64,000 nt of DNA from Candidatus Poribacteria bacterium. Its GTDB lineage: Bacteria; Poribacteria; WGA-4E; WGA-3G. The DNA is taken from positions 4,354,799 through 4,418,798 of the forward strand of contig OZ243935.1 of assembly GCA_965214045.1 (NCBI GenBank), in the 5' to 3' direction. How positions within the stretch are numbered: position 1 is the stretch's first letter; each line of letters starts with the position of its first letter. The notes under the pieces were generated by a model. That model had not been told where the DNA came from. It ran no database searches and saw only the letters and a list, made by a program, of their open reading frames with translations. This document shows positions 45,957-59,967 of the stretch, piece by piece. The translations under genes and the position numbers were made by a program.

Positions 45957-46269
45957 CCGGATACGTTTCTTGAATCGTTTCCCGTTCAACTTCATGTTTC
46001 CCTTGTACACAATGCTAACGGGGACACATGCGAAGCATATCCAACGGAGAACTATCGCTTCGATATTACACCGATCAAAACAATGTATCAGGAGGCTTAT
46101 CAACAGGAAGCAGGGATCATCATTTTACGACTCAAAGATGCCCCAGACGGGAACCTCGTCTACGAATTTACGATGTAGTTGCGATTTCTCAATTGCGGGG
46201 TTGTAGGGAAACCGATTTCCCATGCCTCTGCCTTCTGCTTGTCTACTATTTTGTAGGAGAACACACGAA

Positions 46270-47949
46270 ATGTCCAATAAGTTGAAACCCCGAAGTTATG
46301 CGATTACCGATGGACCCGACCGCGCCGCCGCACGCACTATGCTCATGTTCGGCGATGGTGGATTATCACCTGAAGATCTTGACAAACCGATTATCGGGGT
46401 TGCCAATACTTGGATCGAAATAGGTCCTTGTAACTTTCACTTGAGACGACTTGCTGCTAAGGTCAAAGAGGGTATCCGCGAGGCAGGTGGAACACCTCTT
46501 GAATTCAATACCGTCAGTATCTCCGACGGTATCACTATGGGCACCGAGGGTATGAAAACTTCGCTCATCAGTCGGGAAATCATTGCAGACTCGATCGAGT
46601 TAGTTTCCATCGGTAACATGTTTGATGCTGTCGTTGCCCTCTGTGGATGCGATAAGACCGTCCCGGGCACTGTCATGGCACTTGCCCGGTTAGATATTCC
46701 ATCGCTCACGCTCTACGGCGGATCGATCATGCCGGGCAAATTTCAAGGGCGAGATGTCACCATCCAAGACGTATTTGAAGCAGTCGGGCAACATGCGGAA
46801 GGCACAATCACCGTCGAAGAACTCGATGATTTGATTAGTAAGGGGTGTCCAGGTCCCGGGGCATGTGGTGGCCAATTTACTGCCAATACTATGGCAACAG
46901 CCGTTGAAATGTTGGGCATTGCTCCAATGGGAAGTGGGAGTGTCCCCGCAGTCGTAGGCGACAAAGATCAAGAAGCATACAGAGCCGGACAAATCGTTAT
47001 GGACATGCTTGACGCTGATCGGAGACCGAGTCAAATTATCACTCGCAAGTCCCTTGAGAATGCGATCACCTCTGTCGCGGCAACCGGCGGTTCTACCAAC
47101 GGTGTTCTCCATCTACTCGCCATCGCGTACGAGGCACAGATTCCGTTGACGCTTGAGGATTTTCACAGCATTAGTCAAAGAACCCCGGTATTGGCAGACC
47201 TCAAACCCGGTGGACAGTTCGTTGCGACCGATCTTTATGAGGCGGGTGGCATACCGTTCTTGGCAAAACGCTTGGCAGAAGCAGGTTTGCTCCACACCGA
47301 TGAACTCACTGTCACAGGAAAATCCATCGGTGAAGAGGCAAACGCTGCCACCGAAACTGAGGGACAGCAAGTCGTCAGACCCGTCGATGTGCCACTCAAA
47401 CCGACTGGTGGCTTTGCCATCTTAAGGGGTAACCTTGCACCAGATGGGTGTGTTATTAAATTAGCAGGTCAGGATAAAACACTCCATCGGGGTCCCGCCC
47501 GTATTTTTGAACGTGAAGAGGATACCTTTGCCGCCATCAAAGGCGGACAGATCCAACCCGGGGATGTCGTCGTTATCCGTTATGAAGGACCGACCGGTGG
47601 TCCCGGTATGCGTGAAATGTTAGGCGTAACAGCCGCCATCGTAGGGGCAGGCTTGAGTGAAGATGTTGCCCTTTTAACCGATGGTAGATTCTCTGGCGCG
47701 ACACACGGTTTCATGATCTGTCACGTCGCCCCTGAAGCCGCAAACGGCGGTCCTATTGCTATCCTTCAAGAAGGAGACGAAATCGTGATTGATGCCAAAG
47801 AACGACGACTCGATGTCGAGCTTTCCGATGCTGAAATTCAAGCACGTTTTGAGCAGTGGAATCCACCTAAACCGCGCTACGCTCGCGGCGTCATGGCAAA
47901 GTATGCCAATTCAGTTTCTTCTGCTTCTGAAGGTGCTGTGACAGGATAA
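46270..47949 (+). CDS. ilvD: dihydroxy-acid dehydratase
   Basis: ATG at 46270 follows AGGAGAA. The IlvD/EDD family Cys ligands (CDK, CPGPGAC) are present. Confidence 0.9.
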
Positions 47950-53500: not shown

Positions 53501-55396
53501 ATGAGCGCATTTTATATCACCACACCCATCTACTACGTCAACGATGAACCGCATGCGGGACACGGTTATAGTACCATTGTCGCAGATACTTTGGCGCGCT
53601 ATCACCGACTCAAAGGCGATGAGGTGTTCTTTTTGACCGGTGTTGATGAGCACGGCGCAAAGATACATAAAGCCGCTGAAAACGCAGGGCTTACCCCGCA
53701 AGATTATTGCGATAAAATAGCACCTACATTTATCAAATTTTGGAAACGGTTGAATATCTCACACGACATCTTCATGCGCACGACAAGCGATATGCACAAG
53801 CGCGGCGCGGAGAAATTTCTCACCGCCCTCTACGATAATGGAGATGTCTACAAAGGGACTTATGAAGGATACTATTGCCTCCCCTGCGAGCGGTTTGTTC
53901 CTGAAAAAGAATTGACAGACGAAAAGACCTGCCCTATTCATAAATTGCCCTTAGAATGGCTCGAAGAGGAGAACTATTTCTTCAGGCTTTCTAAGTATCA
54001 AGACCGTCTACTCGCGCATTTCCACGAGAATCCAGACTTTGCCTACCCTGCCGCTCGGCGCAATGAGCTCCTGAGCGTCCTCAACTCTGGATTGGAAGAC
54101 ATAAGTATCTCTCGTTCCTCCGTCTCGTGGGGAATTTCTTTGCCGTTCGATCCTGAGCATATCGTCTACGTCTGGATCGAGGCATTAATGAATTATATGA
54201 CAGCACTCGGTTATGAAACCGATAGTGAGCAGTATCACACTTTCTGGCCAGCGGATGTCCACATGATGGGGAAGGACATCACCCGCTTCCATGCGCTGAT
54301 CTGGCCCGCAATGCTGATGGCTGTAGACCTGCCACTTCCGAAGCAGATTATCGCACACGGTTTTTTGACAAAAGATGGCGAAGCGTTGAGTAAAACGCGC
54401 GGTATTTTCGTTGATCTGGATGCAGATATCGCGAAATACGGATTGGATGCGTTCCGTTATTATCTCCTGCGTGAATTTAGCTTCGGAAACGACGGCGATT
54501 ACCGTCCCGCCCGTTTGCACGCCCGCTACAATGCTGATCTCGCGAACGATCTCGGTAATCTGCTCAATCGTGTTCTCGGTTTAGTGAATAAGAACTTTGA
54601 TAGGATTCCCGGACCCACAACTCCCGGTGAATTTGATGATGAAATCACGGCGATGGCGCAGACGACAGTGGATACATTAGACGAAGACATAAAAGCGTTT
54701 GCCTTTGACGCGGCATTGGAAACCATCTGGGAATTTGTCAGACGTATCAATCGGTACGTCCAACAAACGCAGGTCTGGACGCTCGCGAAGCCTGAGACGA
54801 AACCGAGAATGGGGACGATCCTCTACAATAGTTTAGAGGCACTGCGGTTCATTTCTGTCCTGATCTCACCGTTCATTCCGGACACGGCTGAGAAGATTCA
54901 GAAGCAGATCGGTTTAGCGGAATTTGATACCGTCGCAGAATGGGGACGTTTACCTGTAGGACTGACAGTCAGTAGGGGCGAACCCATTTTCCCGCGTGTC
55001 GAGGTCAAGAAACAGAAACAACCGCAACCCAAAGAAGCAACGCAACCCAAGCAGAAGAAGGGAAAGGAAACATCGAGCCTTATCCCCTTTGCCGACTTCC
55101 AAAAATTGGATCTGCGGGTGGCGCGTATCCTCAGTGCTGAACCGATTGAAGGGGCTGACCGACTTCTCAAGCTGCAGGTTGACCTCGGTACTGAAAAACG
55201 ACAATTGGTCGCTGGAATTGCCGAACACTATAAACCCGATGCACTGGTGGGTAAACAGATAATAGTCGTCGCGAATTTAGAACCCGCAACAATCCGTGGC
55301 GTCGAATCACACGGTATGGTTCTCGCGGGAAGCGGTGACGCCGTAGTTTTGGCAACTCTTGAAACAGAAATGCCCCTCGGCACACAGGTAAGGTAG
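53501..55396 (+). CDS. metG: methionine--tRNA ligase (with C-terminal EMAP/tRNA-binding domain)
   Basis: The HIGH region is PHAGHGYS and the KMSKS region is ALSKTRG. The C-terminal tRNA-binding domain is present. Confidence 0.9.
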   Translation: MSAFYITTPIYYVNDEPHAGHGYSTIVADTLARYHRLKGDEVFFLTGVDEHGAKIHKAAENAGLTPQDYCDKIAPTFIKFWKRLNISHDIFMRTTSDMHKRGAEKFLTALYDNGDVYKGTYEGYYCLPCERFVPEKELTDEKTCPIHKLPLEWLEEENYFFRLSKYQDRLLAHFHENPDFAYPAARRNELLSVLNSGLEDISISRSSVSWGISLPFDPEHIVYVWIEALMNYMTALGYETDSEQYHTFWPADVHMMGKDITRFHALIWPAMLMAVDLPLPKQIIAHGFLTKDGEALSKTRGIFVDLDADIAKYGLDAFRYYLLREFSFGNDGDYRPARLHARYNADLANDLGNLLNRVLGLVNKNFDRIPGPTTPGEFDDEITAMAQTTVDTLDEDIKAFAFDAALETIWEFVRRINRYVQQTQVWTLAKPETKPRMGTILYNSLEALRFISVLISPFIPDTAEKIQKQIGLAEFDTVAEWGRLPVGLTVSRGEPIFPRVEVKKQKQPQPKEATQPKQKKGKETSSLIPFADFQKLDLRVARILSAEPIEGADRLLKLQVDLGTEKRQLVAGIAEHYKPDALVGKQIIVVANLEPATIRGVESHGMVLAGSGDAVVLATLETEMPLGTQVR

Positions 55397-59537: not shown

Positions 59538-59566
59538 TTGACATTTCTGTTCAAATGTGTTATACT
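59538..59566 (+). promoter_or_regulatory. sigma70 consensus promoter (TTGACA–17 bp–TATACT) heading the ilvB leader
   Basis: Read from the sequence. Confidence 0.5.
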
Positions 59567-59572
59567 TAAAGC

Positions 59573-59967
59573 GTAATATATAGTTCTTTTTAGCATGCCT
59601 GTGAAACTTCGTAAAACGGTGTGCGTAATTAACAATTAAATAGATTACCCCAAAAAGCGTTGAAGGGGAGGAGTAAGTCGTCCGGGCTTGCGAGAGAAGG
59701 AGATTCATAGGCTGAAAGGTCTCCTCAAGTTCCTACGACCCAAGGTCGCCCTGGAGTTGCTAATCTGAACAGTCCGTAGGACATCAGTAAGATTAGTCGG
59801 TGTGATGTCCGTTAACGCATCCCAAAGAGTGCCTTTTCTCGTTGGTAAGGTTTTATAGTCTGATGCCTTAAATAAAAATGAGAAAGGGAATTGGAGTGGT
59901 ACCACGGTAAGGCAAGTGTAAATGTCCTTCTCGTCTCCATGTTCGGAACGAGAAGGTTTTTTCTTTT
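59573..59967 (+). promoter_or_regulatory. putative T-box riboswitch leader (tRNA-sensing antitermination) ending in an intrinsic terminator
   Basis: At 59889-59907, AATTGGAGTGGTACCACGG matches the T-box consensus AAUUAGGGUGGUACCGCGG at 16 of 19 positions, including the UGGN-ACC core. It is immediately followed by the terminator hairpin CCTTCTCGT/ACGAGAAGG at 59926-59956 and then TTTTTTCTTTT. About 310 nt of structured leader lie upstream, with AGAGA and several stems. Confidence 0.5.

What the first reader, a model, noticed from the sequence alone, without database searches (positions are those of the whole stretch)
59573..59967. T-box-like tRNA-sensing leader with intrinsic terminator upstream of ilvBNC
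A near-consensus sigma70 promoter at 59538-59566 is followed by a structured leader of about 400 nt. The leader contains AAUUGGAGUGGUACCACGG at 59889-59907, which matches the T-box consensus at 16 of 19 positions with the UGGN...ACC core intact. Directly downstream is a 9-bp-stem terminator (CCTTCTCGT...ACGAGAAGG) followed by UUUUUUCUUUU. This is the arrangement expected for aminoacyl-tRNA-responsive antitermination of a branched-chain amino-acid operon, as in the Bacillus ilv-leu T-box. The UGGU before ACC implies a tRNA with discriminator A73, consistent with Leu, Ile or Val. T-boxes are rare outside Firmicutes, Actinobacteria, Chloroflexi and Deinococcus, so its presence in a genome with this gene content is notable. 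The specifier codon could not be assigned by eye.
Basis: partly seen in the sequence, partly recalled or inferred. Interest (0 to 1): 0.55.

Follow-up and report, generated by a model that had tools for sequence, protein, structure and literature searches.

The report
Valine-sensing T-box riboswitch in Poribacteria
The leader upstream of ilvBNC is a complete T-box riboswitch, most likely read by uncharged valine tRNA; the class is textbook, but this one sits in Candidatus Poribacteria, a phylum for which I found no published T-box report.

Summary

- **Rfam hit:** RF00230 (T-box) matches window 59651-59941 (+) over the full model at 96.4 bits (gathering score 93, E 6e-20). It is the only Rfam hit in the 64 kb window.
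- **Anatomy:** every canonical part is present, from the K-turn and Stem I to an antiterminator that shares bases with a 9-bp terminator and U-tract.
- **Organism:** Candidatus Poribacteria.
- **Conservation:** the same leader sits before ilvB in all 11 distinct Poribacteria lineages first examined. It also appears on about 25 metagenome contigs, with strong compensatory covariation in every helix.
- **Specifier:** It is GUC (Val, 59745-59747) followed by a purine. The loop reads GAA-N-GUC-R everywhere, with N free and GUC fixed. One sub-lineage has switched to AUC (Ile).
- **Other phyla:** ilvB T-boxes elsewhere use Leu or Ile codons.
- **Not universal:** two Poribacteria-labelled loci lack the element and one carries a decayed copy.

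This is a new member of a very well-known kind. Interest is modest: phylogenetic reach, Val specificity on ilvBNC, and a natural specifier switch.

The parts
59538..59566 (+). Sigma-70-type promoter: TTGACA, 17-nt spacer with TG, TATACT
   Evidence: 11 of 12 consensus positions. The same TTGACA-N17/18-TATACT is found upstream of the T-box in 6 of 11 Poribacteria lineages.
59573..59650 (+). 5' leader segment between the predicted transcription start and Stem I; function unknown
   Evidence: Conserved with L001 and L085 (core TAAAACGGYGTGCRTAATTAA). Absent in L083, L087, L088 and L089, where the promoter lies 11-33 nt from the T-box. No significant fold (z = -0.67).
59651..59941 (+). T-box leader, full RF00230 match
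   Evidence: 96.4 bits, gathering score 93, E 6.4e-20, model positions 1-219. It is the only hit in the window even at E <= 0.1.
59657..59758 (+). Stem I: K-turn (GC/GUUGAA...GGA/GU), specifier loop (5' side AGGAGUA 59669-59675), AGAGA bulge 59693-59697, distal loop 59704-59719 with GCUGAAA
   Evidence: Rfam alignment. Covariation on 11 lineages: 92% of cells paired against 53% or less when partners are slid; 8 of 24 pairs have double changes; 0 of 500 shuffles reach the observed score.
59745..59748 (+). Specifier codon GUC (Val, 59745-59747) plus the following purine G (59748), at the 3' end of the specifier loop CAAGGUCG (59741-59748)
   Evidence: All relatives read (G/C)AA-N-GUC-R, with N = G, C, U or A and GUC fixed. 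This is the '+0' frame of the TBDB rule (PMC7778990).
59760..59796 (+). Stem II (CUAAUCU/AGAUUAG) with the GAA...AGUA S-turn motif
   Evidence: 5 of 7 pairs show compensatory changes.
59798..59821 (+). Stem IIA (CGG/CCG) and the IIB pseudoknot (GAUGU 59804-59808 with GCAUC 59817-59821), including the CCGUUA box
   Evidence: the pseudoknot is 98% paired. One lineage carries AUAC/GUAU in place of GAUG/CAUC.
59832..59888 (+). Stem III (CCUUUUCUC/GAGAAAGGG) with a long variable loop
   Evidence: 6 of 9 pairs show compensatory changes.
59893..59938 (+). Antiterminator: GGAG [bulge UGGUACC 59897-59903; UGGU pairs with the tRNA 3' end ACCA] ACGG-U-AAGG ... CCUU-C-UCGU CUCC
   Evidence: 98.3% paired in 10 lineages; -11.4 kcal/mol.
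59926..59967 (+). Intrinsic terminator: hairpin 59926-59956 and U-tract 59957-59967. Its 5' arm is the 3' arm of the antiterminator.
   Evidence: 94.6% paired; -14.7 kcal/mol, z = -4.1.
59963..60079 (+). Three perfect tandem copies of a 39-nt unit between the terminator and the ilvB ribosome-binding site; probably a recent insertion, role unknown
   Evidence: period 39, 3.0 copies, 100% identity. Not found elsewhere in the window or in the 90 loci held at the time. Each unit folds weakly (-6.8 kcal/mol, z = 0.36).
60134..61810 (+). ilvB (acetolactate synthase large subunit); GAGG lies 8 nt upstream of the ATG
   Evidence: Pfam TPP_enzyme N, M and C domains; sources name it biosynthetic-type acetolactate synthase large subunit, Candidatus Poribacteria.
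61835..62332 (+). ilvN (acetolactate synthase small subunit)
   Evidence: Syntenic genes in relatives carry ACT and ALS_ss_C domains.
62585..63577 (+). ilvC (ketol-acid reductoisomerase)
   Evidence: KARI_N and KARI_C.

Best explanation
This is a canonical full-length transcriptional T-box riboswitch that controls the ilvBNC operon of a Candidatus Poribacteria bacterium, most likely in response to uncharged tRNA-Val.

Proposed mechanism:
1. Transcription starts at the near-consensus promoter, around 59573.
2. Stem I docks the tRNA. The specifier GUC (59745-59747) pairs with the GAC anticodon, and the AGAGA bulge and distal loop contact the tRNA elbow.
3. If the tRNA is uncharged, its free 3' end ACCA pairs with UGGU (59897-59900) in the T-box bulge. 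This stabilises the weaker antiterminator (59893-59938), and RNA polymerase reads through into ilvB.
4. If the tRNA is aminoacylated, that pairing is blocked. The more stable terminator (59926-59967) forms and transcription stops.

Shown here: family membership by covariance-model score, all structural modules, their conservation and covariation, the fixed GUC, and the overlap of antiterminator and terminator.

Inferred from established T-box knowledge: tRNA binding, charge discrimination and read-through.
For: - RF00230 full-length hit at 96.4 bits, above the gathering score of 93, E 6.4e-20. It is the sole Rfam hit in the window.
- The same element scores above the gathering score before ilvB in L001 and in 9 of 10 further Poribacteria loci. 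The tenth, L088, has it by eye.
- Covariation: Stem I 92% paired with 8 double-change pairs. Stem II, IIA, IIB and III 90.8% paired with 13 of 24 double-change pairs. In both, 0 of 500 shuffles reach the observed score and slid controls stay at 53% or below. Antiterminator 98.3% paired; terminator 94.6%.
- Terminator -14.7 kcal/mol against antiterminator -11.4 kcal/mol, with shared bases 59926-59938.
- Specifier loop GAA-N-GUC-R: N varies and GUC is fixed in 11 lineages and 23 metagenome contigs.
- UGGU implies A73, as expected for tRNA-Val (general knowledge of bacterial tRNA identity).
- The downstream genes make the precursor of valine.
- A TTGACA-N17/18-TATACT promoter recurs in 6 of 11 lineages.
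Against: - No experiment was done. tRNA binding and read-through are not shown.
- No tRNA gene lies in the window or in the Poribacteria loci. The existence of tRNA-Val(GAC) with A73 in this genome is therefore untested.
- The +1 frame UCG/UCA (Ser) is also conserved.
- The score is only 3.4 bits above the Rfam threshold, mainly because of a long Stem III loop insertion.
- The three 39-nt repeats and the 78-nt 5' segment have no assigned role.
- The element is absent or decayed in three Poribacteria-labelled loci, so it is dispensable in some lineages.
Confidence: 0.86

Rival explanations
1. It is a functional T-box, but the effector tRNA is not Val. It could be tRNA-Ser through the +1 frame (UCG), tRNA-Gly through the -1 frame (GGU in the window), or the element could respond to more than one tRNA.
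For: UCG (UCA in L104) is as conserved as GUC across relatives. TBDB notes that alternative frames and multi-tRNA specificity occur in some T-boxes (PMC7778990).
Against: - The -1 frame is not conserved: GGU, CGU, UGU and AGU all occur.
- In the +1 frame the first G of GUC would be a free position like its 5' neighbour. Yet it is G in about 34 leaders and changes only once, to A, which gives another branched-chain codon, AUC.
- Bacterial tRNA-Ser has G73, which calls for UGGC rather than UGGU (general knowledge).
- A serine or glycine signal makes no regulatory sense for ilvBNC.
- The canonical geometry puts one purine between the codon and the helix (PMC7778990).
Confidence: 0.07
2. It is an evolutionary relic. 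The T-box-shaped leader no longer switches and acts only as a constitutive partial terminator or an inert 5' UTR.
For: Some Poribacteria have lost it (L124, L125) or carry a decayed copy with UGCU in the bulge (L126). The window copy has insertions: a long Stem III loop, the 39-nt repeats and a 5' extension.
Against: Every functional position is intact in the window: the K-turn, S-turn, AGAGA, the distal loop, GUC plus purine, UGGUACC, and the antiterminator/terminator overlap. Helices are kept through compensatory changes across lineages whose IlvB is only 60-80% identical. That pattern implies purifying selection on structure. Insertions fall only in loops and spacers.
Confidence: 0.04
3. 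Control is by classical ribosome-mediated attenuation through a short leader peptide (ATG 59595 to TAA 59639, MPVKLRKTVCVINN, 5 of 14 residues branched-chain) rather than by tRNA sensing.
For: A 14-codon ORF with three Val, one Leu and one Ile lies in the 5' leader segment (read).
Against: There is no Shine-Dalgarno sequence upstream. In L001 the ATG is replaced and a 1-nt insertion removes the stop. The segment is absent in most relatives that keep the T-box. The ORF ends 287 nt before the terminator, so ribosome position could not control it.
Confidence: 0.02

Closest known systems
Bacillus subtilis ilv-leu (ilvBNC-leuABCD) T-box leader, RF00230
   Same: Same RNA family and modular architecture. 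Same mechanism class: tRNA-dependent transcription antitermination. Same first genes of the operon, ilvB-ilvN-ilvC (PMC12452182).
   Different: The B. subtilis element senses tRNA-Leu (PMC12452182; that its specifier is CUC is my recollection, not checked), and the operon is also controlled by CodY and TnrA. Here the specifier is GUC (Val), the operon carries only ilvBNC, and the host is Poribacteria rather than Bacillota.
T-boxes before ilvB in other phyla found here: Paenibacillus (L017, L019, L070), Armatimonadota (L011, L014), Atribacterota (L048), and L123 (unidentified taxon)
   Same: T-box leader directly upstream of ilvB.
   Different: Their specifiers are CUC (Leu) or AUC (Ile), not GUC. 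All but L123 (94.9 bits) score below the Rfam gathering score (54-86 bits), whereas the Poribacteria leaders score 93-110 bits.
Geobacter/Pelobacter leuA T-box (the delta-proteobacterial exception)
   Same: An isolated T-box on a branched-chain amino-acid biosynthesis gene in a Gram-negative lineage outside the classical T-box phyla (PMC2494555).
   Different: Different gene (leuA) and a different phylum. The Poribacteria element is conserved across deep intra-phylum divergence.
Actinobacterial ileS translational T-boxes
   Same: tRNA sensing through a specifier and the UGGN bulge, outside Firmicutes (PMC7778990).
   Different: Those are shortened, with the specifier in the Stem I hairpin loop, and they sequester the ribosome-binding site. 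This element has the full Stem I, II, IIA/B and III set and an intrinsic terminator with a U-tract.

Membership tests
T-box leader (Rfam RF00230) | Covariance-model score at or above the curated gathering score over the full model | tested here: met
   96.4 bits against 93, model positions 1-219, E 6.4e-20. Relatives score 93.1-109.9 bits.
T-box leader (Rfam RF00230) | Stem I with a basal K-turn (GA motif) and a specifier loop carrying the AGUA/GAA S-turn, with a codon followed by a purine at its 3' end | tested here: met
   GC-GUUGAA-GGGG...CCCU-GGA-GU; loop AGGAGUA / CAAGGUCG. Relatives read GAA-N-GUC-R. Covariation. In the window the first base of GAA is C; all relatives have G.
T-box leader (Rfam RF00230) | Stem I distal AG bulge and distal loop, the tRNA-elbow platform | tested here: met
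   AGAGA at 59693-59697 is invariant in 11 lineages. Distal loop GGCUGARA matches the model's GGUGaaA. The tertiary interaction itself is not testable here.
T-box leader (Rfam RF00230) | Stem II with an S-turn, the Stem IIA/B pseudoknot, and Stem III | tested here: met
   24 pairs, 90.8% paired, 13 with compensatory changes. The pseudoknot helix is 98% paired.
T-box leader (Rfam RF00230) | Conserved T-box sequence forming an antiterminator with a 7-nt bulge that starts with UGGN | tested here: met
   GGAG-UGGUACC-ACGG at 59893-59907, invariant in relatives.
T-box leader (Rfam RF00230) | Mutually exclusive intrinsic terminator overlapping the 3' arm of the antiterminator, followed by a U-tract | tested here: met
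   Bases 59926-59938 are shared. Terminator -14.7 against antiterminator -11.4 kcal/mol. The terminator is conserved in 10 of 10 lineages.
T-box leader (Rfam RF00230) | Downstream gene belongs to amino-acid or tRNA metabolism matching the specifier | tested here: met
   ilvB, ilvN and ilvC with a Val codon.
T-box leader (Rfam RF00230) | A cognate tRNA in the host with a matching anticodon (GAC) and discriminator (A73) | not tested
   No tRNA genes lie in the window or in the Poribacteria loci.
T-box leader (Rfam RF00230) | Read-through dependent on uncharged tRNA | not testable with these tools
   Needs in vitro transcription or in vivo reporter assays.

The most novel reading that the evidence does not exclude
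The Val-specific T-box on ilvBNC is an old, vertically inherited feature of Candidatus Poribacteria rather than a recent import. It is present in clades whose IlvB is only about 60% identical, has been lost or has decayed in a few lineages, and has been re-targeted from Val to Ile by a single base change in one. That would make Poribacteria a bona fide T-box-using phylum outside the Firmicutes, Actinobacteria, Chloroflexi and Deinococcus group. It would bear on whether T-boxes arose once and spread by transfer or are older than assumed.
Probability: 0.5. Interest if true: 0.4.

Novelty: new member of a known kind. Interest (0 to 1): 0.33.

Why it matters
T-box riboswitches are among the best understood RNA regulators, so the mechanism itself is not news. 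The value here is in comparative biology.

1. It extends well-supported T-box regulation to Candidatus Poribacteria, an uncultivated phylum. No mention of it was found in the searchable literature, and earlier surveys found no T-box in the neighbouring Planctomycetes.
2. It gives a clean specifier assignment, Val GUC, for an ilvBNC operon. The ilvB T-boxes found here in other phyla use Leu or Ile codons.
3. It documents a natural one-base Val-to-Ile specifier switch between close relatives, together with loss and decay in others. This makes a compact case study of T-box evolution.
4. It offers a regulatory handle: a prediction that ilvBNC expression tracks Val-tRNA charging. That prediction can be checked in metatranscriptomes of samples that contain Poribacteria.

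Tried and rejected
- **Leader-peptide attenuation.** The ORF 59595-59639 (MPVKLRKTVCVINN) has no Shine-Dalgarno sequence and is not conserved in L001 or more distant relatives.
- **The 39-nt x3 repeats as extra terminators or a dispersed repeat family.** Each unit folds weakly (z = 0.36) and has only four U residues after the hairpin. The unit occurs nowhere else in the window or in the 90 loci held at the time.
- **The 5' segment 59573-59650 as an extra structured domain.** It has no significant fold and no Rfam hit.
- **A HIP1-like GCGATCGC repeat.** I suspected this from insertions in L001, L082 and L085, but it is not enriched in the window.
- **Other T-boxes in the window.** None was found even at E <= 0.1, including upstream of ilvD (46222) and the methionyl-tRNA synthetase gene (53501).
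- **tRNA-Val in the window or loci.** No tRNA genes were found.
- **A second T-box type in Poribacteria.** The metagenome scan returned a Trp (UGG) T-box before a TrpB2-like gene, a Met T-box before a methionyl-tRNA synthetase gene, and one chance match. Their taxa could not be established, so they say nothing about Poribacteria.
- **Vitreschak et al. 2008 (PMC2271356).** The paper is not held in the library.
- **Evidence that ilvB plus the T-box came from Firmicutes.** The best non-Poribacteria IlvB matches are about 55% identical and come from mixed phyla, so there is no donor signal.

Full report

Yes.
- A TTGACA-17 nt-TATACT promoter at 59538-59566, matching 11 of 12 consensus positions with a TG extension.
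- AAUUGGAGUGGUACCACGG at 59889-59907.
- A hairpin with arms CCTTCTCGT (59926-59934) and ACGAGAAGG (59948-59956), followed by TTTTTTCTTTT (59957-59967).

My promoter/terminator scan did not list the hairpin only because its loop exceeds the 8-nt limit. ViennaRNA folds it at about -14.7 kcal/mol, z = -4.1.

Rfam RF00230 (T-box) matches 59651-59941 on the + strand over the whole model, at 96.4 bits against a curated threshold of 93, with E 6.4e-20. It is the only Rfam family found in the 64 kb window, even at E <= 0.1.

**2. Anatomy**

The Rfam alignment and direct reading give these parts:
- **K-turn:** GC-GUUGAA-GGGG paired to CCCU-GGA-GU.
- **Specifier loop:** AGGAGUA on the 5' side and CAAGGUCG (59741-59748) on the 3' side.
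- **Distal Stem I:** AGAGA bulge at 59693-59697 and a distal loop containing GCUGAAA.
- **Stem II:** 59760-59796, with the GAA/AGUA motif.
- **Stem IIA:** CGG/CCG, with a IIB pseudoknot (GAUGU 59804-59808 pairing with GCAUC 59817-59821).
- **Stem III:** 59832-59888.
- **Antiterminator:** GGAG[UGGUACC]ACGG-U-AAGG...CCUU-C-UCGU-CUCC, 59893-59938.

The 3' arm of the antiterminator is the 5' arm of the terminator, so the two structures exclude each other. The terminator is the more stable (-14.7 against -11.4 kcal/mol). That is what a switch needs if tRNA must stabilise the antiterminator.

Downstream lie ilvB (60134-61810, GAGG 8 nt before the ATG), ilvN and ilvC.

**3. Whose genome?**

IlvB is 96% identical to that of a Candidatus Poribacteria MAG (L001, JAJECN010000010.1). 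The closest proteins in the large protein database are named Candidatus Poribacteria. The window's gene content fits: sulfatase, PSCyt2/PSD1, dockerin and LRR proteins.

**4. Comparative evidence**

I fetched ilvB loci for IlvB homologues 77-96% identical to the window's.
- L001 and 9 of 10 further loci carry an RF00230 hit above threshold directly upstream of ilvB. Two of those nine, L083 and L084, are identical.
- The remaining locus, L088, has the element by eye.
- This gives 11 distinct lineages including the window.
- The gene order sodA, leader, ilvBNC recurs in most of them.

Helix-by-helix counts on these 11 lineages:

| Region | Cells paired | Slid controls | Pairs with double changes | Shuffles reaching the observed score |
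|---|---|---|---|---|
| Stem I | 92% | 53% or less | 8 of 24 | 0 of 500 |
| Stem II, IIA, IIB pseudoknot, Stem III | 90.8% | 50% or less | 13 of 24 | 0 of 500 |
| Antiterminator (10 lineages) | 98.3% | 65% or less | 1 of 12 | 14 of 500 |
| Terminator (10 lineages) | 94.6% | 62% or less | 2 of 13 | 125 of 500 |

Length differences between lineages sit in loops and spacers. This is the signature of a structure under selection.

A TTGACA-N17/18-TATACT promoter recurs in 6 of 11 lineages.

**5. The specifier**

The 3' strand of the specifier loop reads (G/C)AA-N-GUC-G in all 11 lineages. N is G, C or U, and GUC-G is invariant.

One scan of metagenome contigs, using a pattern based on the antiterminator and independent of the specifier, returned 33 contigs, 26 of them with ilvB downstream.
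- 23 of these read GUC, one of them followed by A instead of G.
- These 23 include a high-GC clade (L096, L104, L111, L122). IlvB of L104, L111 and L122 is only 61-62% identical to the window's; L096 carries only a 37-residue fragment. The nearest named relatives of the L122 IlvB are again Poribacteria.

By the standard rule, the codon occupies positions 2-4 from the 3' end of the loop and is followed by a purine (PMC7778990). The specifier is therefore GUC, Val.

The alternative frames fare worse:
- The -1 frame is not conserved.
- The +1 frame (UCG, Ser) is conserved. However, it would leave the first G unconstrained, and that base is fixed. It would also call for a G73 tRNA, and UGGU fits A73.

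UGGU fits tRNA-Val (A73; general knowledge of bacterial tRNA identity). Valine is a direct product of the pathway that ilvBNC starts.

Two contigs (L094, L095) read AUC (Ile), although their IlvB is 93% identical to that of L083, which has GUC. This is a natural single-base re-targeting between two end products of the same enzymes. It further supports the +0 frame.

**6. Comparison with the known**

The element passes every testable defining feature of RF00230. It is a member, not merely an analogue.

The closest characterised system is the B. subtilis ilv-leu T-box. That element senses tRNA-Leu and is layered with CodY and TnrA control (PMC12452182).

ilvB T-boxes that I found in other phyla use Leu or Ile codons:
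- CUC in Paenibacillus, Armatimonadota and an unidentified contig (L123).
- AUC in Atribacterota.
- All but L123 score below the Rfam threshold.

The Val assignment therefore distinguishes the Poribacteria group.

Surveys describe T-boxes as limited to Firmicutes, Actinobacteria, Chloroflexi, Deinococcus-Thermus and Geobacter. They found none in the one Planctomycetes genome surveyed (PMC3766115, PMC2494555). TBDB attributes occurrences in other phyla to horizontal transfer. No paper in the library mentions both Poribacteria and T-box, and the single paper mentioning Poribacteria and riboswitch is unrelated.

**7. Limits and oddities**

- The element is not universal in the phylum. Rfam found nothing at E <= 1e-3 in three Poribacteria-labelled ilvB loci.
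  - L124 and L125 have no trace of a T-box. In L125, ilvD is fused to the front of the operon.
  - L126 keeps recognisable remnants: CUGAAGGUCGCCCCGGAGCU, and GGAGUGCUACCACGG with UGCU in place of UGGU, plus a terminator. It looks like a decayed or aberrant copy.
- In the window clade an extra 78 nt or so lies between the promoter and Stem I. It is conserved with L001 and L085 but has no significant fold.
- Three perfect 39-nt tandem repeats occupy 59963-60079, between the terminator and the ilvB ribosome-binding site. They are unique to this genome among everything I fetched.
- Neither feature has an assigned role. Neither disrupts the switch.
- No tRNA gene was available to check the cognate tRNA.

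**8. Verdict**

The finding is correct as observed and as interpreted. I add the organism (Poribacteria), the specifier (GUC, Val), the covariation support, the distribution within the phylum and the Val-to-Ile switch.

It is a new member of a thoroughly known class. A riboswitch specialist would find the host and the evolutionary pattern mildly interesting, and the mechanism unsurprising.

Noticed in passing
window 59963-60079: Three perfect head-to-tail copies of a 39-nt unit (CTTTTGTAGAGCAAGTTTTCGGTTGGCAAGCTGCACCGA) lie between the T-box terminator and the ilvB ribosome-binding site. The unit was absent from the rest of the window and from the 90 loci held at the time. Each unit forms only a weak hairpin.
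   Followed up: partly
window 59573-59650: A segment of about 78 nt lies between the predicted transcription start and Stem I. It is conserved with L001 and L085 (core TAAAACGGYGTGCRTAATTAA). It is missing in more distant relatives, whose promoter abuts the T-box. It has no significant fold, no Rfam hit, and only a non-conserved 14-codon ORF.
   Followed up: partly
L094 6439-6695 and L095 (metagenome JYMV01): Here the ilvB T-box has the specifier AUC (Ile) instead of GUC (Val). Yet IlvB is 93% identical to that of L083/L084, which have GUC. This is a natural single-base specifier switch.
   Followed up: partly
L126 about 2130-2490; L124 2150-2500; L125 684-815: Three Poribacteria-labelled ilvB loci have no Rfam T-box. 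L126 retains a decayed or variant copy with the specifier loop intact but UGCU replacing UGGU in the bulge, and its contig has an N gap. L124 and L125 have no trace. In L125, ilvD is fused to the front of ilvBNC.
   Followed up: partly
L001 3759-3790 and L085 2697-2735: The Stem II loop of these close relatives carries an insertion (GGAGCGAUCUCCGAAUCGCG) that could form a small hairpin or pseudoknot. The window lacks it.
   Followed up: no
L100, L106, L112 (metagenome contigs): T-boxes with a UGG (Trp) specifier and the same GGAG...CUCC antiterminator variant sit upstream of a TrpB2-like tryptophan synthase beta gene. The taxon is unknown.
   Followed up: partly
window 46222-47949 and 53501-55396: An ilvD-like dihydroxy-acid dehydratase gene and a methionyl-tRNA synthetase gene lie in the same window without any T-box. 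In this stretch T-box control is confined to ilvBNC.
   Followed up: yes
L047 3042-3313 and 3393-3652 (Bacillus benzoevorans): Two tandem T-boxes above the Rfam threshold precede ilvB. This matches the tandem arrangement reported for branched-chain amino-acid genes in Bacillota.
   Followed up: no
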